A stretch of 15,425 nucleotides of DNA, taken from IMG/VR virus record IMGVR_UViG_2698536647_000007. One strand, 5' to 3'. The stretch comes from a virus. Taxonomy: Duplodnaviria; Heunggongvirae; Uroviricota; Caudoviricetes. This document shows positions 232-15,425 of the stretch, piece after piece. A model generated the notes under the pieces. That model was not told where the DNA came from, did no database searches, and saw only the letters and a program-made list of their open reading frames with translations. The translations under genes and the position numbers were made by a program. Within the stretch, counting starts at the first letter, position 1, and every line of letters starts with the position of its first letter.

Positions 232-296
232 GTGAGTCACCTCTGACTGAGAGTTTACTCACTTAGCCGCGTGTCCACTATTGCTGGGTAAGATCA
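1..296 (-). mobile_element. IS3 insertion sequence, partial (terminal inverted repeat plus 5' part of orfA; rest lies beyond the window start)
   Basis: Reverse complement of 229-296 reads TGATCTTACCCAGCAATAGTGGACACGCGGCTAAGTGAGTAAACTCTCAGTCAGAGGTGACTCACATG, which I recognise as the IS3 left end running into the orfA start codon. Element end placed at 296. Confidence 0.85.
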
Positions 297-376
297 AGAT
301 GCTTTACGTCTTCCAAGCCCCCTTCCTTGCCGTAAATGGAAAGATACATCTAATTATAGAATTTATATGTTTTACC

Positions 377-952
377 CTACGGCAGTGCTGGCCATTCAAT
401 ATCCTGTGCAGTTGACGTATCAACACGGTTCAGCAACACCCGATACTTTTTCCAGGCTTCCAGCAATGAGGTTTCTTCCTCCGTTGCGATTTCCAGATCT
501 ACAGCATCCTGAAGTGGCGCAATATGCTCACTGGCTACCTGCATCAGGCTGTTTTTTGTTTCTTCCGCCTCTCGGATCCGGAACAGTTTTTCTGCTTCTG
601 CATCTTTCACCCAGGCTGTGCCGTTCCACTTCTGAAACTCCCCTTCCGGCGATAACCAGGTAACATTTTCCGGTAACGGACCGAGTTCAGAAATAAATAA
701 CGCGTCCCCTGACGCTACGTCATAAACCGTTTTACCCCGATGGTCTTCATCGAGATGCCACGATGCCTTATCACTGTTGAAAACAGCCACAAAGCCAGCA
801 GGAATATCTGGTGGTGCAATATCGGTACTGTTTGCTGGCAGACCTGTATGAGGCGGAATATATGCGTCACCTTCACCAATAAATTCATTAGTTCCGGCCA
901 GCAGATTATAAATTTTTATGGTCCGTGGTTGTTCACTCATTCTGAATGCCAT
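377..952 (-). CDS. tfaQ: Phage tail fibre assembly protein (Tfa chaperone), 191 aa
   Basis: ORF track 377..952(-), [24 protein letters not shown]..., recognised as the TfaQ/TfaR/TfaE family. It lies immediately after a tail-fibre tip ORF, the canonical fibre-chaperone order. Paralog assignment (Q vs R/E) rests on synteny with other Qin genes. Confidence 0.8.
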
Positions 953-2580: not shown

Positions 2581-2778
2581 CACTTTCTTAAATCTAACGA
2601 CAGATGGCTAACATTTAAGTATTGTGAAATATTATCAAATGTAATCATCATTGATTTACAAAAGATACATTTTGCCCCGAAAGGATTTCTGTCAGAAACA
2701 TCAAAAGATGATGTTCTATACTGAGAACCATGGCAACACGGGCATCTAAAGTGAATATGGTTTGTAATATTTTCTACC

Positions 2779-2991
2779 TCAAAGTGCCACTACATGAACA
2801 GCTGCAGGGCCTTTAGGTCCGTTCTCAATACCAAATTCGACTTCCTGATTCTCAGTTAACGTTTTGAAATCGTTGCTCTGAATAGCTGAGAAATGCACAA
2901 ACACATCTTTGCTACCATCTTTCGGCGTGATGAAACCAAAACCTTTTTCAGGGTTAAACCATTTCACTAAACCAGTCATTTTGTTAGACAT
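2779..2991 (-). CDS. cspI: Cold-shock protein CspI, 70 aa
   Basis: [70 protein letters not shown], recognised as CspI. The track ORF starts one Met earlier (2994). Confidence 0.9.
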
Positions 2992-3327
2992 CATTATTAC
3001 CTTTTGAAGAAGTTAGCCCTTGGGCAGAATGGTCCGAAAAAAAATATCAGAGAGAAAAACCAACAAGGAAATCTCAAGAGGTACAAATAATAAAATTATA
3101 ACAATGACTGCTTCAGATAATTTTGTAACAAACCAGAACACCATTAACGCATGATTAACCAACCATAGCAAGGATTACTTTTGTAAAGAAAAACACACGG
3201 ATGAAACAATAGCTTTATTTATTAATAAAACGTGTCATTCTGTCTAATGACCTTTTATCTTACCCTTAAGATTTCAAGGATTTTGACTCATGGAAGAGTC
3301 CTTTTTATTTAAATTTCACATTCAGCG

Positions 3328-4378
<1,051 letters not shown>

Positions 4379-5385: not shown

Positions 5386-5663
5386 ATTGTGGTGCTTTTT
5401 GTGGGAGTCATCCACTTACGCACTTTGTTTTGCCATGCCAGCAGTTAGCTTCTGCTGTAAAACTATTCATGCAGCAAACCTGCACTTCACCACAATGGTT
5501 AGCATACTTTTCCTGATTAAGATTTTGCCAAATATGCTGGCCATTGTTTCATGTATTGGACCTCCTTAATTTTTATTAAAGAAATCCAATATTCACTACT
5601 CTGTCCGTATCTCTACTCAGGCATCAGCCTTCTTCGTTATCGTATACAGACGAGCGATGAATT

Positions 5664-5879
5664 TTAATCAGTAATGATGACATTTGCTGCTGCAGGACCT
5701 TTAGCACCACTCTCTATAGAGAAGGTAACCTTTTGACCTTCAAATAAGGTTCGATAATTATCATTCTGAATCGCAGAAAAATGCACAAACACATCTTTAC
5801 TACCATCAACAGGAGAAATAAAGCCGAAACCTTTATCAGCGTTAAACCATTTTACTAAACCAGTCATTTTATTTGACAT
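5664..5879 (-). CDS. cspB: Cold-shock protein CspB, 71 aa
   Basis: [67 protein letters not shown]..., recognised as CspB. About 300 bp of divergent leader is shared with cspF. Confidence 0.9.
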
Positions 5880-6179
5880 TCTACATTCCTTAACTTGAGC
5901 CTTTCGGCATAAATGGTTTGCATAACAGAAACGACTTCGTACTTAATTGGAGAGACTCAAAGAAGGAATAAGTGAATAACACCTGAAATGAGAACTGCTT
6001 TAGTAAACTACTTCGTATATCGTCTGTTCTTCAAACCGACGCAATCATTAACGCATAGTTGAACATATGAAGCAATGTTTATTTTAGACATCCAGCCATC
6101 TTCAACCCCATCAAAAAACTATAGCTTTCTTCAGGAACGTGTGTATAGTGCGCCAAGTTATCAGTATTAAGGAATTTTT

Positions 6180-7579: not shown

Positions 7580-8287
7580 TTACGCCAGTACGCCAATTGC
7601 CAGCGCGCGATCGATAAAACGAAATATCAGCTCCAGTTGGGAGCCATACTTCTCTTCAAATGCCACTGTATCCGTATGCAGCTCGTTGTGATGCTTTCTG
7701 CACAAAGGCAACACAAAGAGATCATGTGCTTTTGTTCCCATTCCGCCCTGCCCGTGACCAATCAGATGATGCGGATCGTCGGCTGGCATACCGCAGCAAG
7801 CACACGGCTGTGTCTTAACCCAACGTGTGTATTTCTCCTTAACCCAGCGGCGACGTTTAGGCAGCTTCATGAAAGATTCCGGAGACTCTGGATCAACGGT
7901 GATGCTTACCACCGTCTTTTCCTGTGGTAGTTTTTGTTGCTGGTGGGCGTAAGGCAACGGTGCAAGATTTTTTGTGCGTTGTTTCAATATGCTGGTGGCG
8001 GTCTGCTCTCCCGGTACGATGTCGCTTTCGCGGTACACCGAGCAGATTTTTTCCGCTGGTAATCCCAGCGAACGACGCGATACAGCCTCAGGTAGTGCAT
8101 CCACCACCTGATTGCAGACCGCCCACCAGGATAATTCAGCCAAAGATAATTCCCGCTCCTGCGTACCGCTTATTGCGTGACGGATGACGTCAATCACCCA
8201 TGCTGTCAGATTTTGTTGAGCAAGCAGCTCCAGTGATTCCGATGTCTGGTCACGCAGTTGGTTGTCGCAGTGCCAACACAACACCAT
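7580..8287 (-). CDS. HNH-like Cys/His motif protein (DUF968-like, YdfU-like), 235-aa frame; possibly the C-terminal part of a frameshifted gene
   Basis: ORF track 7580..8287(-). Motif CACCGMPADDPHHLIGHG...LCRKHHNELH. This frame stays open upstream to 8413 without a start codon and overlaps the 8206..8655 ORF. Confidence 0.65.
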   Translation of the reverse strand: MVLCWHCDNQLRDQTSESLELLAQQNLTAWVIDVIRHAISGTQERELSLAELSWWAVCNQVVDALPEAVSRRSLGLPAEKICSVYRESDIVPGEQTATSILKQRTKNLAPLPYAHQQQKLPQEKTVVSITVDPESPESFMKLPKRRRWVKEKYTRWVKTQPCACCGMPADDPHHLIGHGQGGMGTKAHDLFVLPLCRKHHNELHTDTVAFEEKYGSQLELIFRFIDRALAIGVLA

Positions 8288-8952: not shown

Positions 8953-9360
8953 ATGGATACAAAAAATTTAACTATCGGCGAACGCATTAGGTATCGTCGG
9001 AAAAACCTCAAACACACCCAAAGGTCTCTTGCTAAAGCCCTGAAAATCTCCCATGTGTCTGTTTCACAATGGGAACGGGATGATAGTGAACCTACAGGGA
9101 AGAACCTTTTTGCCCTCAGCAAAGTATTGCAATGCTCACCAACATGGATTCTATTTGGCGATGAAGACAAGCAATCTACAACACCTGTTGAGAAGCCAGT
9201 TGCCTTATCTCCCAAAGAACTAGAGCTCCTTGAGCTGTTTAATGCACTGCCAGAATCAGAACAGGATACCCAGCTCGCCGAAATGCGAGCTCGAGTAAAA
9301 AACTTCAATAAACTCTTTGAAGAATTACTAAAAGCCCGTCAGCGGACAAATAAAAGATAA
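8953..9360 (+). CDS. dicA: DicA, HTH (XRE-type) repressor of the dicB operon, 135 aa
   Basis: MDTKNLTIGERIRYRRKNLKHTQRSLAKALKISHVSVSQWERDD..., recognised as DicA with an N-terminal helix-turn-helix. Confidence 0.9.
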   Translation: MDTKNLTIGERIRYRRKNLKHTQRSLAKALKISHVSVSQWERDDSEPTGKNLFALSKVLQCSPTWILFGDEDKQSTTPVEKPVALSPKELELLELFNALPESEQDTQLAEMRARVKNFNKLFEELLKARQRTNKR

Positions 9361-10612: not shown

Positions 10613-10670
10613 TTTCTGGTGACGTTTGGCGGTATCAGTTTTACTTCGTGACTGCTCTGCCGCCCTTTTT
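10613..10670 (+). ncRNA. dicF: DicF small RNA (antisense regulator of ftsZ and other mRNAs)
   Basis: TTTCTGGTGACGTTTGGCGGTATCAGTTTTACTTCGTGACTGCTCTGCCGCCCTTTTT matches the DicF sequence as I remember it, with a GGCGG...CCGCC stem and U-tail at the 3' end. It lies between the ydfB/C region and dicB. Exact 5' end is approximate. Confidence 0.8.
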
Positions 10671-10839
10671 AAAGTGAATTTTGTGATGCGGTGAATGCGG
10701 CTAAGCGCACGCGGAACAGTTAAAACCAAAAACAGTGTTATGGGTGGATTCTCTGCATCCGGCGTTAATTGTTAACTGGTTAACGTCACCTGGAGGCACC
10801 AGGCACCGCATCACAAAATTCATTGTTGAGGACGCGATA

Positions 10840-11028
10840 ATGGAAACGTTATTACCAAACGTCAATACGTCTGAAGGTTGTTTTGAAATTGGTGTCAGAA
10901 TCAGTAACCCTGCATTTACTGAAGATGCCATTAATAAGAGAAAACACGAACGGGAGTTATTAAATAAAATATGCATTCTTTCAATGCTGGCCCGTTTACG
11001 CCTGATGCAAAAAGGACGCTGGCAATGA
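10840..11028 (+). CDS. dicB: DicB cell-division inhibitor, 62 aa
   Basis: The track ORF (10735..11028) is longer, but ATG 10840 preceded by GAGGA gives METLLPNVNTSEGCFEIGVRISNPAFTEDAINKRKHERELLNKICILSMLARLRLMQKGRWQ, recognised as DicB. Confidence 0.9.
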   Translation: METLLPNVNTSEGCFEIGVRISNPAFTEDAINKRKHERELLNKICILSMLARLRLMQKGRWQ

Positions 11029-11228
11029 ATACAGCATTTGCACTCGTTCTGACAGTTTTTCTTAATACAGGCGAACCAGTCGATCTTGTTATTGGCATAC
11101 ATGACTCAATGAAAGAATGCATGGCTGCCGCAGCGGAACAAAAAATTCCCGGTAACTGCTATCCGGTCGATAAAGTTATTCACATGGACAATAACGAAAT
11201 CCCGGCAGGACTTAAAACAGCACCGTAA
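11025..11228 (+). CDS. ydfD: YdfD-like small membrane protein, 67 aa
   Basis: ATG overlaps the dicB stop (ATGA). MNTAFALVLTVFLNTGEPVDLVIGIHDSMKECMAAAAEQKIPGNCYPVDKVIHMDNNEIPAGLKTAP has a hydrophobic N-terminus. YdfD has been reported as a lysis-inducing protein. Confidence 0.75.
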   Translation: MNTAFALVLTVFLNTGEPVDLVIGIHDSMKECMAAAAEQKIPGNCYPVDKVIHMDNNEIPAGLKTAP

Positions 11229-11308
11229 TTAATATCCGGTTTCATTTTTATATGCCAGCAATGGCAGGGATTTGTTCACCCTTAAATCTGTAATGAGGTT
11301 AAAACAAA

Positions 11309-13789
11309 ATGAGTAAAGTCTTTATTTGCGCCGCCATTCCGGACGAACAGGCAATAAAGGAAGAAGGTGCAGTCGCTGTAGCCACTGCCATTGAAGCCGG
11401 CGACGAACGCCGCGCCCGTGCCAAATTTACCTGGCAATTCCTGGAGCAATATCCGGCTGCTCAGGACTGCGCTTATAAATTTCTTGTCTGCGAGGATAAA
11501 CCCGGCATGCCCCGCCCTGCCATCGACTCCTGGGATACCGAATATATGCTGGAAAACCGCTGGGATGAGGAAGGCGCTTCCTTTGTTCCGGTCGAACCAG
11601 AATCCGATCCGATGAACGTCAATTTTGACAAGCTGTCCCTTGAAGTACAGAACGCGGTCCTGGTTAAGTTCGGTACATGTGAAAACATCACCGTTGATAT
11701 GGTGATTAGTGCACAGGAATTGTTGCAGGAGGACATGGCAACATTCGACGGGCATATCGTTGAGGCACTGATGAAAATGCCTGAAGTTAACGTCATGTAT
11801 TCAGAACTAAAGCTGTTCGCCATCGGGTGGGTTAAACATAAATGTAAGCCGGGCGCAAAATGGCCTGAGATCCAGACAGAATTACGCACCTGGAAAAAAC
11901 GTCGCGAAGACGAACGCAAAGAAACCGGGAAATACACGTCTGTTGTTGATCTTGCCCGCGCCAGAGTCAACCGGCAGCACACTGAAAACTCAGCAGGAAA
12001 AATCAACCCCGCCACTACCGCCATTCGTCGCGAATACAAGCAGACATGGAAAACGCTGGATGAAGAACTGGCCTACGCTCTGTGGCCTGGCGATATTAAT
12101 GCCGGAAACATTGACGGCAGCATCCATCGCTGGGCAAAAAATGAAGTTATCGACAAAGATCGCGAAGACTGGAAGCGCATTTCCGCATCAATGCGCAAAC
12201 AACCCGATGCCGTTCGCTACGACCGTCAGACTATTTTTGGCCTTGTCCGTGAGCGTCCGATCGACATTCACAAAGATCCCGTGGCACTGAACAAATACAT
12301 CACTGAATACCTGGCGACAAAGGGCGTGTTTGAGGATGAAGAAACAGACCAGAACACTACTGATATTCTCCAGCCGTCAGCAGCACAAACTGATGCAGTG
12401 GAAACTGAAGTATCTGATACCCAAAAAAATGAAAGCACGCTGGAAACTGAACCATCTGTAGAGCGTGAGGGGCCGTTCTACTTCCTTTTCACCGATAAGG
12501 ATGGCGAAAAATATGGTCGTGCAAACAAACTTTCTGGTCTGAATAAGGCGCTGGCTGCAGGGGCTACTGAAATCACGAAAGAAGAATATCTTGCCCGCAA
12601 AAACGGCACATACTCAGGTTCACAACAAAATACTGGTGCATCTGACACGACCGCACAACCGGAGCCGGTAAAAGTTACCGCTGACGAAGTAAACAAAATT
12701 ATGCAGGCAGCCAATATCAGCCAGCCTGACGCCGATAAGTTGCTTGCTGCCTCTCGCGGAGAATTTGTTGCAGGGATTAGCGACCCGAATGATCCGAAAT
12801 GGGTGAAGGGGATTGAAACCCGCGATTCTGTAAACCAGAACCAGCAAGAATCGGAACAGAACGACCAAAAAGCGGAACAAAACAGCCCAAATGCGTTACA
12901 AAACGAGCCAGAAACGAAACAACCTGAGCCAGTAGCGCAACAGGAAGCGGAAAAAGTCTGCACCGCCTGCGGTCAGACCGGCGACGGCAACTGCCCTGAT
13001 TGTGGCGCGGTGATGGGCGACGCAACATACCAGGAAACATTCGATGAAGAGAATCAGGTTGAAGTTCAGGAAAATGATCCGAAGGAAATGGAAGGCGCTG
13101 AACATCCACACAAGGAGAATGCTGGCAGCGCTCAGGACCACGCCAGCGATAATGAAACTGGCGAGACGGCAGATCCCTTAATTGTGGTGAACGGTCATCA
13201 CGTTATCACATCCACCAGCAGAGTATGGTACCACCTGATGATCGACCTTGAAACAATGGGAACCAACACCAATGCGCCCATCGTGGTTATTGGTGCGGTT
13301 TTCTTCGACCCACAAACAGGGGAAATCGGGCCAGTATTTTATATCGTTATCAGTCTGACTGACGCAATGAATACAGGGGCTGTTCCTGACGGTGGAACCA
13401 TCGAATGGTGGCTGAAGCAGTCCAGTGAAGCCAGAGCTGCCATTTTAACAGACCAGGTAAAACTGAAGGATGCCCTTTCGCGGTTTCGGGAGTTCATCAA
13501 CGAATACTCAGATGAAAAATTCGTTCAGGTATGGGGTAATGGTGCAACTTTCGATAACGCAATTTTGCGCACCTCATACGAACGTCTGGACATCCCCTGC
13601 CCGTGGCGCTACTACAACGATCGCGATGTACGCACAATCGTTGAGCTGGGAAAAACAATCGACTTTGATGCCAGAACCGTTATTCCATTCGAAGGCGTGC
13701 GCCACAATGCACTGGATGACGCCCGTCACCAGGCAAAATACGTTACAGCTACGATACAAAAACTGATCCCGAGTCAGGCTGATTTTTAA
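11309..13789 (+). CDS. Large multidomain protein, 826 aa: N-terminal region of unknown function, acidic linker, C-x2-C-x7-C-x2-C zinc ribbon, C-terminal DEDDh-type 3'-5' exonuclease domain
   Basis: ORF track 11309..13789(+), GAGG 10 nt upstream. C-terminal motifs: MIDLETMG (D-x-E), [12 protein letters not shown] (Asp), HNALDDARH (H-x4-D). Zinc ribbon [16 protein letters not shown]. Occupies the K-12 ydfE slot, which I recall as a short IS2-truncated remnant. Confidence 0.85.
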
Positions 13790-13858: not shown

Positions 13859-14110
13859 ATGAGCGAAGTAATCATGATTGTCTCTCCCGGTAAATGGGTA
13901 TCCGAAGAACAGCTAATTGCGCTGAAAGGAATAAAAAAGGGAACGCTAAAAAAAGCCAGGGAAAAATCGTTTATGGAAGGAAGGGAATATAAGCATGTAG
14001 CCCATGACGGTATGCCATGGGATAACAGCCCATGCTTTTACAACCTGGAAGAAATTGATCGCTGGATTGAACGTCAGGCATCAGCAAGACCAAGACGTCA
14101 TCTTACTTGA
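13859..14110 (+). CDS. Excisionase-like small protein (putative recombination directionality factor), 83 aa
   Basis: ORF track 13859..14110(+). Small basic protein immediately upstream of the integrase gene. Assignment is positional; no strong motif recognised. Confidence 0.5.
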   Translation: MSEVIMIVSPGKWVSEEQLIALKGIKKGTLKKAREKSFMEGREYKHVAHDGMPWDNSPCFYNLEEIDRWIERQASARPRRHLT

Positions 14111-14144
14111 CTAAAAACAATACTAACCAATGAGAGAAGCTAAA

Positions 14145-15425
14145 ATGAAATATCCGACAGGCGTGGAAAACCATGGAGGGAAATTACGTATCTGGTTTGT
14201 TTATAAAGGTGTAAGAGTCAGGGAAAATCTGGGGGTTCCTGACACGACAAAAAACAGGCGCATTGCAGGTGAGCTGCGCGCCTCTGTTTGTTATGCAATA
14301 AAAACCGGCGTTTTCGACTATGCAAAACAGTTTCCCTCCTCACACAATCTGGAAAAATTTGGTGAGGCCCGACAAGATTTAACCATAAAGGAACTGGCTG
14401 AAAAATTTCTGGCACTGAAAGAAACGGAAGTCGCAAAAACGTCACTCAACACGTACCGTGCCGTCATCAAAAATATTCTGAGCATAATCGGTGAAAAAAA
14501 TCTTGCCTCGTCGATTAATAAAGAAAAATTGCTGGCGGTACGTAAAGAGTTACTTACTGGATACCAGATCCCCAAAAGTAATTATATTGTTACGCAACCG
14601 GGGAGATCGGCTGTCACCGTAAATAATTACATGACAAATCTTTACGCCGTGTTCCAGTTTGGTGTTGATAACGGTTACCTGGCAGATAATCCGTTTAAGG
14701 GGATCTCGCCATTAAAGGAATCAAGAACCATTCCTGATCCTCTTTCACGGGAGGAATTTATCCGTCTTATCGACGCCTGCAGAAATCAGCAGGCCAAAAA
14801 TTTATGGTGTGTTTCTGTTTATACAGGCATTCGCCCTGGTGAACTGTGTGCGCTTGGGTGGGAGGACATAGATCTGAAAAATGGAACAATGATGATCAGG
14901 AGAAATTTAGCAAAAGATCGTTTTACGGTACCGAAAACACAGGCTGGTACCAATCGGGTAATTCACCTTATCAAGCCTGCAATCGACGCTCTCAGGAGTC
15001 AGATGACACTAACGAGGCTGAGCAAAGAACATATTATTGACGTTCACCTCAGAGAGTTCGGCAGAACAGAAAAACAAAAATGCACCTTTGTTTTTCAACC
15101 TGAAGTGTCAGCGAGAGTAAAAAATTATGGTGACCATTTTACCGTTGACTCAATAAGGCAGATGTGGGACGCAGCGATAAAGCGCGCTGGCCTCCGCCAC
15201 CGCAAATCATATCAGTCGAGACATACTTATGCCTGCTGGTCGCTGACAGCCGGTGCCAACCCGGCATTCATAGCAAACCAGATGGGACATGCAGATGCGC
15301 AAATGGTGTTTCAGGTATACGGGAAATGGATGTCTGAAAACAATAATGCACAGGTAGCTTTGTTAAATACACAGTTAAGCGAGTTTGCCCCAACCATGCC
15401 CCATAACGAAGCAATGAAAAATTAA
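14145..15425 (+). CDS. intQ: Tyrosine-type phage integrase, complete, 426 aa from the second ATG
   Basis: Track ORF 14130..15425; ATG 14145 has a better upstream purine tract. The C-terminus has the tyrosine-recombinase signature (RHTYACWSLTAGANPAFIANQMGHADAQMVFQVYGKW: the catalytic His/Arg region and Tyr). Stop codon is the last 3 nt of the window. Symbol is by synteny with Qin. Confidence 0.85.
   Translation: MKYPTGVENHGGKLRIWFVYKGVRVRENLGVPDTTKNRRIAGELRASVCYAIKTGVFDYAKQFPSSHNLEKFGEARQDLTIKELAEKFLALKETEVAKTSLNTYRAVIKNILSIIGEKNLASSINKEKLLAVRKELLTGYQIPKSNYIVTQPGRSAVTVNNYMTNLYAVFQFGVDNGYLADNPFKGISPLKESRTIPDPLSREEFIRLIDACRNQQAKNLWCVSVYTGIRPGELCALGWEDIDLKNGTMMIRRNLAKDRFTVPKTQAGTNRVIHLIKPAIDALRSQMTLTRLSKEHIIDVHLREFGRTEKQKCTFVFQPEVSARVKNYGDHFTVDSIRQMWDAAIKRAGLRHRKSYQSRHTYACWSLTAGANPAFIANQMGHADAQMVFQVYGKWMSENNNAQVALLNTQLSEFAPTMPHNEAMKN

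What the first reader, a model, noticed from the sequence alone, without database searches (positions are those of the whole stretch)
11309..13789. Intact 826-aa multidomain nuclease gene in the exo/RecE slot next to xis-int
The C-terminal ~190 aa carry the full DEDDh 3'-5' exonuclease signature (D-x-E in MIDLETMG, Asp in [12 protein letters not shown]-x4-D in HNALDDARH). Upstream are a C-x2-C-x7-C-x2-C zinc ribbon, a Gln/Glu/Asn-rich acidic linker and a ~330-aa N-terminal region with no motif I recognise. The gene is the last cistron of the DicA-repressed operon, directly before xis and int, where lambda carries exo and Rac carries recE. Those are 5'-3' exonucleases, so this would be the opposite polarity in the same position. 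The K-12 counterpart (ydfE) is, as I recall, an IS2-truncated fragment, so the full-length protein is probably little characterised.
Basis: partly seen in the sequence, partly recalled or inferred. Interest (0 to 1): 0.7.

Follow-up and report, generated by a model that had tools for sequence, protein, structure and literature searches.

The report
RecE-like scaffold carrying a 3'-5' exonuclease
This intact prophage gene encodes a relative of the RecE recombination nuclease whose usual 5'-3' cutting domain has been replaced by a 3'-5' DnaQ/DexA-type exonuclease; it is very common in E. coli, already annotated as an exonuclease, and its role has not been tested.

Summary
Window 11309-13789 (+) is an intact 826-aa ORF. 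It is the last gene of the dicA-ydfA-DicF-dicB-ydfD early operon and lies directly before xis and int. Residues 641-826 are a DEDDh exonuclease (Pfam Rv2179c-like, E=6e-68; D646, E648, D749, H799, D804). This domain is 36% identical to E. coli EcD and 26% to T4 DexA, both shown experimentally to be 3'-5' DNA exonucleases.

New here: residues 279-626, including the zinc ribbon and acidic linker, are homologous to RecE. The homology stops exactly where the RecE nuclease domain begins, so this is a head swap. The same scaffold also carries PD-(D/E)XK heads (followed by RecT) or a Rad52-like annealase head. The DEDDh head also exists alone in the same slot in phage LLS.

Folded domains are under purifying selection. 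DEDDh versions never have an annealase partner. The N-terminal folds match nothing solved.

Full-length copies occur in 3504 of 5426 complete E. coli genomes and in viable phages (mEp460, Tritos, Evi). Databases label them "exonuclease", often wrongly "exonuclease VIII". The role is untested; I favour DNA-end processing during lytic growth. Verdict: a new variant of a known kind, of moderate interest.

The parts
11309..13789 (+). Complete ORF, 826 aa plus stop: multidomain exonuclease, the full-length YdfE family
   Evidence: ORF list and translation. phrog_2082 'exonuclease' matches end to end. It is 98.8% identical in DNA to the gene for WP_000048567.1 'exonuclease' in E. coli UMNF18.
11309..11959 (+). 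N-terminal module N1 (residues 1-217; Pfam YdfE_N in newer Pfam): an alpha/beta subdomain (1-100) plus a helical subdomain (105-206)
12026..12343 (+). Helical module N2 (residues 240-345; YdfE_C, the RecE middle region)
   Evidence: NCBIfam RecE model NF007259 aligns residues 219-626 to profile positions 243-603. BLASTP to K-12-type RecE starts at residue 279. pLDDT 85-93. dN/dS 0.12-0.19.
12464..12613 (+). Small beta-hairpin/helix module C (residues 386-435)
   Evidence: AlphaFold pLDDT 92-95 for residues 390-431. The module recurs in proteins with other heads. dN/dS 0.05-0.11.
12728..13186 (+). Block shared with RecE (residues 474-626): conserved linear motif, Gln/Glu-rich linker, zinc ribbon and acidic linker, ending in ADPLIV
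   Evidence: 74% identical to Rac-SA53 RecE residues 471-614. Aligned to K-12-type RecE up to residue 592, where the RecE nuclease domain begins. The only solved part of RecE is the C-terminal nuclease domain, 3h4r.
12740..12802 (+). Short linear motif [21 protein letters not shown] (residues 478-498) inside a presumably disordered linker (not modelled)
   Evidence: The pattern RG[ED][FYC][VI]..[ILMV][SG]D..D[PE].W occurs in 13 of 65 long representatives, with DEDDh, PD-(D/E)XK, Rad52-like and unassigned heads.
12959..13003 (+). C-x2-C-x7-C-x2-C zinc-ribbon-like motif (C551, C554, C562, C565)
   Evidence: Present in the sequence. Conserved in 120 of 120 close homologues and in both E. coli RecE types, but in only 1 of 65 distant representatives. 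Pfam zinc-ribbon models score below threshold.
13229..13786 (+). DEDDh 3'-5' exonuclease head (residues 641-826); catalytic D646, E648, D749, H799, D804
   Evidence: PF16473, E=6e-68. T4 DexA structure 8kel_A, E=7.5e-9. 36% identical to EcD with E=2e-34, 60% to LLS gp34, 26% to DexA. D646, H799 and D804 are invariant in 12 diverse homologues. dN/dS 0.17-0.18 against mEp460 and Tritos; 0.65 against Evi, where dS is only 0.04.
8953..9360 (+). DicA-like repressor, at the start of the same-strand gene series that ends in this gene
   Evidence: 135 aa with HTH_3 and Phage_CI_repr hits. Same layout as K-12 dicA.
10614..10665 (+). DicF sRNA, upstream in the same-strand gene series
   Evidence: Rfam RF00039, 75.2 bits against a gathering score of 48.
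10840..11228 (+). dicB (10840-11028) and ydfD/DUF1482 (11025-11228), immediately upstream
   Evidence: Pfam DicB E=3.5e-37 and DUF1482 E=1.3e-22. Coordinates were transferred from the UMNF18 annotation.
13859..15425 (+). Excisionase (13859-14110) and intact 431-aa tyrosine integrase (14130-15425), immediately downstream
   Evidence: Pfam DUF1233 putative excisionase E=1.6e-31; Arm-DNA-bind_2 plus Phage_integrase.

Best explanation
The gene encodes a phage early-operon DNA exonuclease built by a domain ('head') swap on the RecE scaffold.

Shown here:
- The protein has the modules YdfE_N (1-217), a helical RecE-middle module (240-345), a small beta-hairpin module (386-435), a conserved linear motif, a zinc ribbon and an acidic linker (474-640).
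- Residues 279-626 of this scaffold are homologous to RecE.
- At the residue where RecE's PD-(D/E)XK 5'-3' nuclease would begin, the protein instead carries a complete DEDDh (DexA/EcD/Rv2179c-type) domain.
- The same scaffold occurs with PD-(D/E)XK heads and with a Rad52-like annealase head, in the same slot before xis-int.
- The DEDDh head also exists as a free-standing gene in that slot.

Inferred:
- The gene is transcribed with dicB and ydfD when the DicA/CI-type repressor is lifted.
- The head removes nucleotides from DNA 3' ends by two-metal DEDDh catalysis (D646, E648, D749, H799, D804).
- The scaffold, perhaps through its conserved [10 protein letters not shown] motif, delivers whichever head it carries to a common target: DNA ends or a host replication or recombination protein.
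- DEDDh versions never have an annealase or an anti-RecBCD partner, and the phages that carry them are Chi-rich. The enzyme therefore most likely trims or processes phage DNA ends during lytic growth that depends on host RecBCD and RecA, rather than running a Red/RecET-type pathway of its own.
For: Identity of the head:
- Pfam PF16473, E=6e-68, covers the whole model.
- The PDB sequence search finds only the 227-aa 'Exodeoxyribonuclease' of 8kel/8ken, which I take to be T4 DexA.
- The head is 36% identical to EcD across the whole domain (E=2e-34), with all five catalytic residues aligned.
- EcD and DexA were shown biochemically to be 3'-5' DNA exonucleases (PMC12153337).

Head swap:
- RecE homology covers residues 279-626 and ends at ADPLIV/ADPVIV, RecE residue 592.
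- Module mapping of 65 long representatives shows all N-terminus/head combinations.
- The third head folds like human RAD52 (5jrb_K, E=3.8e-7, probability 1.0).

Slot and partners:
- DEDDh versions are always the last gene before xis/int with no annealase.
- The one PD-(D/E)XK version whose neighbourhood was read is followed by a RecT-like gene, as is Rac recE.
- A Rad52-like version is flanked by Gam and Sipho_Gp157.
- LLS gp34 is a free-standing head, 60% identical, directly before xis-int.

Functional constraint:
- dN/dS is 0.05-0.19 in folded modules and 0.6-1.7 in the linkers.
- The gene is present in isolated phages mEp460, Evi, Tritos and HannyBb.

Literature:
- Tritos-type lambdoid phages are listed as 'nuclease only', with no SAP, SSB or anti-RecBCD and 7-21 top-strand Chi sites (PMC12315714).
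Against: - No biochemical or genetic test exists for this protein. Polarity, DNA versus RNA preference and biological role all rest on homology.
- The Pfam family is named after an RNA exonuclease.
- 3'-5' ssDNA exonucleases usually depress homologous recombination in E. coli, as noted in PMC12315714.
- The authors of that paper argue that DnaQ-type genes near int are not recombination-module members, because they often coexist with canonical modules.
- The function of the scaffold is unknown. Its predicted folds have no informative structural neighbour.
- Co-transcription with dicB was not tested. A weak terminator-like hairpin lies at 11253-11266.
Confidence: 0.55

Rival explanations
1. It is an inter-phage defence nuclease of the EcD/'HREX' type. 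When expressed from the prophage, the DexA-like head degrades the modified (5hmC) DNA of invading T-even phages and spares unmodified host DNA.
For: - The head is 36% identical to EcD, which degrades T4 DNA in vitro and protects E. coli from T4 when plasmid-borne.
- The gene is kept intact and under purifying selection even in defective Qin-like prophages such as this window.
- It is present in most E. coli genomes.
- EcD itself turns out to lie in a prophage early region.
Against: - The two residues reported to recognise 5hmC are not conserved. DexA W152 aligns with Y769, a column that varies Y/V/W/R in the fused family. DexA D169 (E in EcD) aligns with K782.
- The Asp lost in EcD (DexA D90, tetramer contact) is retained as D721.
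- The gene sits at the end of the repressor-controlled early operon, not among lysogen-expressed genes.
- It holds the same slot in viable phages.
- Its scaffold is shared with recombination proteins.
Confidence: 0.15
2. It is a nucleotide-scavenging nuclease. Like T4 DexA in host-DNA breakdown, it converts DNA fragments or oligonucleotides to mononucleotides for phage replication after induction.
For: - It is homologous to DexA, whose established roles include host-DNA scavenging (abstract of PMC12153337).
- In phage LLS the free-standing homologue lies three genes from a putative deoxyribonucleoside 5'-monophosphate phosphatase.
Against: - From general knowledge, lambdoid temperate phages are not known to degrade the host chromosome.
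- A simple scavenger would not need a 640-residue RecE-type scaffold that is under purifying selection.
- No endonuclease partner is seen in the operon.
Confidence: 0.1
3. It is a 3'-5' exoribonuclease like the family's namesake Rv2179c, acting on RNA. It might, for example, trim the DicF-containing operon transcript or host RNAs.
For: - Pfam and RefSeq name the domain '3'-5' exoribonuclease'.
- There is a weak hit to oligoribonuclease.
- The gene lies on the same strand, about 650 bases downstream of the DicF sRNA.
Against: - The closest experimentally characterised relatives, EcD at 36% and DexA at 26%, act on DNA (PMC12153337).
- The scaffold is shared only with DNA-recombination proteins: RecE and Rad52-like annealases.
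- The free-standing form occurs in phages without DicF, such as LLS.
Confidence: 0.1
4. It is a decaying remnant in a defective prophage with no current function.
For: - The window resembles the defective Qin prophage. Replication genes and most structural genes are missing.
- In K-12 the gene is destroyed by IS2 with no known phenotype.
Against: - The reading frame is intact at the full 826 aa.
- All catalytic residues are present.
- dN/dS is 0.05-0.19 in the folded modules.
- The gene is full length in 3504 of 5426 complete genomes and in viable phages.
Confidence: 0.03

Closest known systems
RecE (exodeoxyribonuclease VIII) of the Rac prophage
   Same: - It holds the same position in the early-left operon, a few genes before xis-int.
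- The middle region is homologous (window 279-626 against RecE 294-592, 40% identity).
- A block is 74% identical; it contains the [10 protein letters not shown] motif, the CxxC-x7-CxxC zinc ribbon and the acidic linker.
   Different: - The window protein has no PD-(D/E)XK nuclease domain; a DEDDh domain takes its place.
- The N-terminus is YdfE_N, not PF06630 Exonuc_VIII.
- No recT gene follows.
- It scores 276 bits against the 1269-bit cut-off of the RecE equivalog model.
- Predicted polarity is 3'-5' instead of 5'-3'.
E. coli EcD ('HREX' exonuclease, GenBank HAK9828821.1; Kang et al., NAR 2025, PMC12153337)
   Same: - Same DEDDh/DexA-like domain, 36% identical over the whole domain.
- All catalytic residues align, and EcD starts at the equivalent of M644, MID(T/L)ET.
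- Both are prophage-borne.
   Different: - EcD is a free-standing protein of about 190 aa in a different prophage type.
- The window protein has Y769 and K782 where DexA has the 5hmC-recognition residues W152 and D169 (W and E in EcD).
- It keeps Asp (D721) where EcD has A78.
T4 DexA (exonuclease A; PDB 8KEL/8KEN)
   Same: It is the only solved structure found by sequence (E=7.5e-9). It has the same family and catalytic motifs and is a 3'-5' DNA exonuclease.
   Different: - Identity is only 26%.
- DexA has extra loops and a temperature-dependent dimer/tetramer switch.
- It comes from a virulent phage and stands alone, with no scaffold (PMC12153337).
Phage LLS gp34 'DnaQ-like exonuclease' and the Tritos-type 'nuclease-only' module (Genome Res 2025, PMC12315714)
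   Same: - LLS gp34 is 60% identical to the head and lies directly before xis-int.
- Tritos gene TRITO_27 is the same full-length gene, 85.9% identical in DNA, in the same dicB-ydfD-exo-xis-int layout.
   Different: - LLS gp34 has no scaffold (190 aa).
- The text of the paper that was held does not describe the RecE-scaffold/DEDDh fusion or the Rad52-like sister architecture. Its supplementary tables could not be read.
Mycobacterium tuberculosis Rv2179c (namesake of Pfam PF16473)
   Same: Same Pfam family and DEDDh signature.
   Different: It is a small free-standing bacterial protein which its Pfam family labels a 3'-5' exoribonuclease, not a DNA exonuclease. It did not appear in the PDB sequence search at E<=1.

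Membership tests
DEDDh (DnaQ-like) 3'-5' exonuclease superfamily | Exo I motif D-x-E | tested here: met
   D646 and E648 lie in MIDLETMG. D646 is invariant in 12 diverse homologues, and both residues align with the DexA and EcD motif.
DEDDh (DnaQ-like) 3'-5' exonuclease superfamily | Exo II aspartate | tested here: met
   D749 lies in [11 protein letters not shown] and is an invariant column in the window/LLS/EcD/DexA alignment. One distant homologue, P0222, has Ala there.
DEDDh (DnaQ-like) 3'-5' exonuclease superfamily | Exo III motif H-x4-D (the 'h' subtype) | tested here: met
   H799 and D804 lie in HNALDDARH. Both are invariant in all alignments.
DEDDh (DnaQ-like) 3'-5' exonuclease superfamily | RNase H-like alpha/beta fold of the domain | not tested
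The fold is inferred from the full-length HMM match and the sequence match to solved DexA.
DEDDh (DnaQ-like) 3'-5' exonuclease superfamily | Metal-dependent 3'-5' exonuclease activity | not testable with these tools
   Needs purified protein. Activity is shown only for the homologues EcD and DexA (PMC12153337).
Pfam PF16473 Rv2179c-like / DexA family | HMM score above the gathering cut-off, with full domain coverage | tested here: met
   228.5 bits against a cut-off of 27. Residues 642-814 cover profile positions 2-175 of 177.
RecE / exodeoxyribonuclease VIII (NCBIfam NF007259 equivalog) | Whole-protein score above the equivalog cut-off | tested here: not met
   276 bits against 1269. Only profile positions 243-603 of 877 are matched.
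RecE / exodeoxyribonuclease VIII (NCBIfam NF007259 equivalog) | C-terminal PD-(D/E)XK 5'-3' nuclease domain (as in PDB 3H4R) | tested here: not met
   There is no PF12684/DUF3799 hit. Alignment to K-12-type RecE ends at RecE residue 592. The PDB search finds only the DexA-like exodeoxyribonuclease 8kel/8ken, not 3h4r.
RecE / exodeoxyribonuclease VIII (NCBIfam NF007259 equivalog) | N-terminal PF06630 Exonuc_VIII domain | tested here: not met
   No hit in the window protein. The domain is present in Rac-SA53 RecE.
RecE / exodeoxyribonuclease VIII (NCBIfam NF007259 equivalog) | Middle region, zinc ribbon and acidic linker homologous to RecE | tested here: met
   40% identity over 279-626 and 74% over 474-624.
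RecE / exodeoxyribonuclease VIII (NCBIfam NF007259 equivalog) | Adjacent recT (annealase) partner gene | tested here: not met
   The next genes are xis and int. The same holds in mEp460, Tritos, 689R5 and loci L011-L014.
HREX / EcD-type modification-dependent defence exonuclease | 5hmC-recognition residues (DexA W152 and D169, or an acidic equivalent) | tested here: not met
   Alignment A5 gives Y769 and K782 at these columns, where EcD has W and E.
HREX / EcD-type modification-dependent defence exonuclease | Loss of the tetramer-forming Asp (DexA D90, EcD A78) | tested here: not met
   D721 is retained.
HREX / EcD-type modification-dependent defence exonuclease | Protection against T4-like phages | not testable with these tools
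   Needs plaque and growth assays.
Pfam YdfE_N (PF27430) and YdfE_C (PF27432) | Match to the family HMMs | tested here: inconclusive
   The local Pfam copy lacks these models. Both families are precomputed for all 120 closest homologues (92-98% identical), and their names are given.
Zinc ribbon | Four Cys in a CxxC-spacer-CxxC arrangement, conserved among homologues | tested here: inconclusive
   The pattern is present and conserved in 120 of 120 close homologues and in RecE. It is absent from all but 1 of 65 distant representatives, and the Pfam zinc-ribbon models score below threshold (E 0.09-0.8). Metal binding was not tested.

The most novel reading that the evidence does not exclude
The long, functionally unexplained N-terminal two-thirds of RecE may belong to a general 'delivery scaffold' of enterobacterial lambdoid phages. 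This scaffold takes interchangeable DNA-end effector heads: a 5'-3' PD-(D/E)XK exonuclease, a 3'-5' DEDDh exonuclease, a Rad52-like annealase, and at least one further unassigned head. It would dock them, perhaps through the conserved [10 protein letters not shown] linear motif, onto a common host or DNA target. On this reading the DEDDh version is a true recombination or replication-end factor of opposite polarity. It would let Chi-rich lambdoid phages that lack Gam and an annealase work with host RecBCD and RecA instead of blocking them.
Probability: 0.3. Interest if true: 0.7.

Novelty: new variant of a known kind. Interest (0 to 1): 0.5.

Why it matters
Full-length copies of this gene sit in about two-thirds of complete E. 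coli genomes and in several culturable lambdoid phages. Nobody has tested what it does, and many phage records mislabel it 'exonuclease VIII'.

Recognising it as a RecE scaffold with a head of opposite polarity gives three things.

1. A corrected annotation.
2. A natural experiment on what the RecE N-terminal region is for. That question has been open since, as I recall, full-length RecE was found to promote linear-linear recombination that the nuclease domain alone does not.
3. A concrete candidate for how lambdoid phages that lack a recombination module and depend on RecBCD and Chi handle their DNA ends.

The sister architecture, the same scaffold with a Rad52-like annealase, is currently called 'exonuclease' in PHROGs. 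It may correspond to the 'RecE-2, no nuclease domain, role unknown' proteins of a 2025 survey.

Tried and rejected
- The PADLOC defence-system models gave only a generic Cas-associated DEDDh hit at E=2.7e-5, with no system assignment.
- The Rad52-like head could not be shown by sequence methods: Pfam and a PDB profile search found nothing. It needed a structure prediction followed by Foldseek.
- Literature searches for ydfE+Qin+exonuclease and for RecE+DEDDh+prophage returned nothing. One search was wasted because 'full-length RecE' also matched 'receptor'. The 16 papers that mention ydfE are incidental, judged from their titles and abstracts.
- The first full-length homologue search was saturated by near-identical E. 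coli clusters and gave no diversity. The representative search with residues 1-380 was the useful one.
The second found only 7 Escherichia/Shigella loci, so the taxonomic range is poorly sampled.
- I considered that EcD might be a mis-called fragment of this 826-aa protein, because its first residues (MIDTET) match M644-T649. I rejected this. EcD is a separate 193-aa gene in a different prophage and is only 36% identical.
- I considered a pseudogene or relic. I rejected this on intactness, dN/dS and presence in viable phages.
Full report
**1. The observation**

The ORF at 11309-13789 (+) is real. It starts with ATG, encodes 826 codons and has no internal stop.
- MIDLETMG at residues 644-651
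- [11 protein letters not shown] at 743-753
- HNALDDARH at 799-807
- [15 protein letters not shown] at 551-565

The window is a Qin-like lambdoid prophage segment. On the minus strand it carries a tail-fibre assembly gene, a lysis cassette, a Q antiterminator, a DUF968 gene and a P22-Cro-like gene (the dicC position). On the plus strand it carries, in order:
- a DicA-like repressor (8953-9360)
- DUF1391/ydfA
- DicF RNA (10614-10665; Rfam, 75 bits)
- dicB (10840-11028)
- DUF1482/ydfD (11025-11228)
- the 826-aa gene
- an excisionase (13859-14110)
- an intact 431-aa integrase (14130-15425)

In a K-12 derivative the homologous gene is annotated 'exonuclease, incomplete, missing C-terminus'. It is 768 nt long and is followed by an IS2 fragment and a truncated integrase.

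**2. The C-terminal head**

Pfam PF16473 (Rv2179c-like 3'-5' exoribonuclease domain) matches residues 642-814 over essentially the whole model (E=6e-68, 228 bits against a cut-off of 27). The only solved structure reachable by sequence is the 227-aa 'Exodeoxyribonuclease' of 8kel_A/8ken_B (E=7.5e-9). This is T4 DexA, described in Kang et al., NAR 2025 (PMC12153337).

That paper also characterises EcD, an E. coli homologue. EcD is a 3'-5' DNA exonuclease that degrades 5hmC-containing T4 DNA, and it protects cells from T4 when plasmid-borne. I recovered the EcD gene from its published primer sequence. It is a 193-aa free-standing gene in a different prophage, and it has Ala at position 78 as the paper describes.

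Identities to the window head:
- EcD: 36% across the entire domain (E=2e-34)
- T4-type DexA: 26%
- gp34 of phage LLS: 60%

All five catalytic residues (D646, E648, D749, H799, D804) align. D646, H799 and D804 are invariant among 12 diverse homologues, while one distant member (P0222) looks degenerate.

The two residues reported to recognise 5hmC are not conserved. DexA W152 aligns with Y769. DexA D169, which is E in EcD, aligns with K782. The Asp that EcD has lost (DexA D90) is retained as D721.

**3. The rest of the protein is a RecE scaffold**

The NCBIfam RecE model aligns residues 219-626 to its positions 243-603. The score of 276 bits is far below the 1269-bit equivalog cut-off. BLASTP against Rac-SA53 RecE gives 74% identity over residues 474-624. 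Against K-12-type RecE it gives 40% identity over 279-626 matched to RecE 294-592.

The homology ends at ADPLIV (window) and ADPVIV (RecE). The only solved part of RecE, the C-terminal nuclease domain 3h4r, lies downstream of this point. The two proteins differ by a clean exchange of the nuclease head at a domain boundary.

The zinc-ribbon pattern is conserved in 120 of 120 close homologues and in both E. coli RecE types. It is found in only 1 of 65 distant representatives, so it is a lineage-specific element.

**4. Anatomy and constraint**

An AlphaFold model of residues 1-450 (35-sequence alignment, mean pLDDT 81) shows:
- a confident alpha/beta subdomain (1-100)
- a helical subdomain (105-206)
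- a second helical domain (247-340)
- a small beta-hairpin/helix domain (390-431)
- disordered linkers between them

Pairwise dN/dS against the homologues in Evi, mEp460 and Tritos is 0.05-0.19 in the N-terminal folded modules. For the head it is 0.17-0.18 against mEp460 and Tritos, and 0.65 against Evi, where dS is only 0.04. It is 0.6-1.7 in the two linkers tested, 346-385 and 573-640.

The head has dS about 1.05 against mEp460 and Tritos, and the N-terminal modules have dS 0.25-0.58. The gene is therefore an intragenic mosaic of alleles.

**5. A combinatorial family**

A full HMMER scan of 1.84 billion representatives with residues 1-380 found only 174 clusters. I mapped modules onto the 65 long members. 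The findings were:
- Two alternative N-termini occur: YdfE_N or the RecE PF06630 domain.
- The middle module is shared.
- Every N-terminus/head combination tested exists. YdfE_N with DEDDh is this gene. YdfE_N with PD-(D/E)XK is seen in P0128, P0210 and P0231. RecE_N with DEDDh is seen in P0131, P0222, P0243 and P0258. RecE_N with PD-(D/E)XK is RecE itself.
- At least 19 further members share a third head with an invariant KKSL and near-invariant flanks (consensus KKSLTDAxKKALSxLGFSADV). This head had no Pfam or PDB sequence hit.
- A model of this third head (pLDDT 87) matches human RAD52 as its only significant PDB hits: 5jrb_K at E=3.8e-7 and probability 1.0, and 8rjw_D at E=1.8e-6. It is a Rad52-like annealase.
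- A further group, including P0127 and P0202, has a different unassigned C-terminus.
- A short linear motif, LAA.RGE[FY]V.GISDP.DPKW, recurs in 13 of 65 members across all head classes.

**6. Slot and partners**

- DEDDh versions are the last gene before xis/int in every case inspected, with no annealase nearby. The cases are this window, mEp460, Tritos, vB_EcoS-689R5 and loci L011-L014.
- The one PD-(D/E)XK version inspected is followed by a RecT-like gene, as is Rac recE-recT.
- Rad52-like versions are followed by Sipho_Gp157. In one case a Gam-like gene precedes them.
- In phage LLS a free-standing DEDDh gene (gp34, 190 aa) lies directly before xis-int.

Zheng et al. (Genome Res 2025, PMC12315714) list 'Tritos' as the prototype of four lambdoid phages whose recombination module is 'nuclease only'. 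These phages have no SAP, no SSB and no anti-RecBCD function, and they carry 7-21 top-strand Chi sites. The paper also notes DnaQ-like nucleases in or near Rec modules. It mentions 'RecE-2' proteins that lack a nuclease domain and have an unknown role. The main text does not describe the scaffold/head logic set out here, and its supplementary tables were not available to me.

The window itself has 4 Chi octamers against 0.34 expected from shuffles. By my own estimate that is roughly the density of the E. coli chromosome.

**7. How it most likely works**

Shown: the gene is an intact, constrained, modular protein with a complete DEDDh active site on a RecE-type scaffold. It sits in the recombination slot of the repressor-controlled early operon.

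Inferred:
- On derepression it is made together with DicB and YdfD.
- The head removes nucleotides from DNA 3' ends.
- The scaffold brings it to the same unknown target as the RecE nuclease and the Rad52-like annealase.
- Because it lacks an annealase and an anti-RecBCD partner, and because its phages are Chi-rich, it most likely processes phage DNA ends in a life cycle that depends on host RecBCD and RecA.

I give this reading a confidence of 0.55. Identity and architecture alone would rate about 0.9, and the specific biological role about 0.4.

The rivals are as follows.
- EcD-like anti-T-even defence, 0.15. It is weakened by the missing 5hmC-recognition residues and by the gene's position in a repressed early operon.
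- DexA-like nucleotide scavenging, 0.10.
- An RNA exonuclease role, 0.10.
- A functionless relic, 0.03.

**8. Known or new?**

The gene family is very common. Of 5426 complete E. coli genomes, 4800 have a match and 3504 have a near-full-length copy. RefSeq annotates it 'exonuclease' or '3'-5' exonuclease'. Several phage records call it 'exodeoxyribonuclease VIII', which the membership test contradicts.

No functional study of YdfE or of the full-length protein was found. The domain families, the slot and the existence of DnaQ-like nucleases in lambdoid early operons are all known. The RecE-scaffold head swap, the sister architecture with a Rad52-like annealase and the shared linear motif appear not to have been described.

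I therefore rate it a new variant of a known kind, with interest 0.5.

Noticed in passing
L008:6001-8088 (P0209) and L016:5001-7337 (P0132); not in the window: At least 19 proteins with the same YdfE_N/RecE-type scaffold end in a domain of about 270 aa that models like human RAD52 (Foldseek 5jrb_K, E=3.8e-7). PHROGs calls these families (phrog_2489, phrog_7838) 'exonuclease'. They may be the 'RecE-2, no nuclease domain' proteins of PMC12315714.
   Followed up: yes
P0127, P0202, P0220, P0223, P0239, P0257, P0262 (representative proteins; not in the window): Another group on the same scaffold ends in a different conserved C-terminus (…YRQQLTIAALQGLCANP…). P0127 had no Pfam hit; the others were not scanned. 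Its function is unknown.
   Followed up: no
window 12740-12802 (residues 478-498): The short linear motif LAA.RGE[FY]V.GISDP.DPKW sits in a presumably disordered linker (not modelled). It is conserved in 13 of 65 distant family members whatever head they carry, and also in RecE. It looks like a docking peptide for an unknown partner.
   Followed up: partly
L017:4992-5564 (phage LLS gp34): Phage LLS has been described as having no recombination module. It carries a free-standing 190-aa DEDDh exonuclease, 60% identical to the window head, directly upstream of xis-int and three genes from a putative dNMP phosphatase.
   Followed up: partly
L009:3989-4570: The published 'bacterial' defence exonuclease EcD is itself encoded in a prophage early region, next to an integrase, HTH regulators, a ParE-like toxin and a Dam methylase.
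   Followed up: partly
window 3957-3964 (-), 7939-7946 (+), 7991-7998 (+), 13212-13219 (-): There are four Chi octamers (GCTGGTGG) against 0.34 expected from shuffles, and none of 200 shuffles reached four. One lies inside the exonuclease gene on the opposite strand. The density is roughly that of the E. coli chromosome.
   Followed up: partly
window 13229-13786 compared with 11309-12613: The gene is an intragenic mosaic. The head has dS about 1.05 against mEp460 and Tritos but 0.04 against Evi. The N-terminal modules have dS 0.25-0.58 against those same two phages.
   Followed up: partly
window 7580-8287 (-): The DUF968 protein (235 aa; K-12 YdfU is the counterpart, as I recall) has weak hits to HNH nuclease and to the P1 Ref-type RecA-dependent nuclease family. 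It could be a second DNA-transaction gene in the prophage.
   Followed up: no
window 10701-11102 (-): A 133-aa ORF lies antisense to dicB and has no Pfam hit. An ORF in the same position is annotated as a hypothetical protein in E. coli UMNF18 and is called in loci L011 and L012 (156 aa).
   Followed up: no
window 411-609 (-), 2733-3149 (-), 5648-6040 (-): Rfam hits to IS009 RNA inside the tail-fibre assembly gene, and to two cspA-type thermoregulator leaders next to cold-shock-like genes, as in Qin.
   Followed up: no
phage records LR597641, LR597642, OV696610, PV340562, ON470583: The product is labelled 'exodeoxyribonuclease VIII' or 'ds DNA exonuclease' in several phage genomes. The protein lacks the RecE nuclease domain and fails the RecE equivalog model, so the label is a propagated misannotation.
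   Followed up: yes
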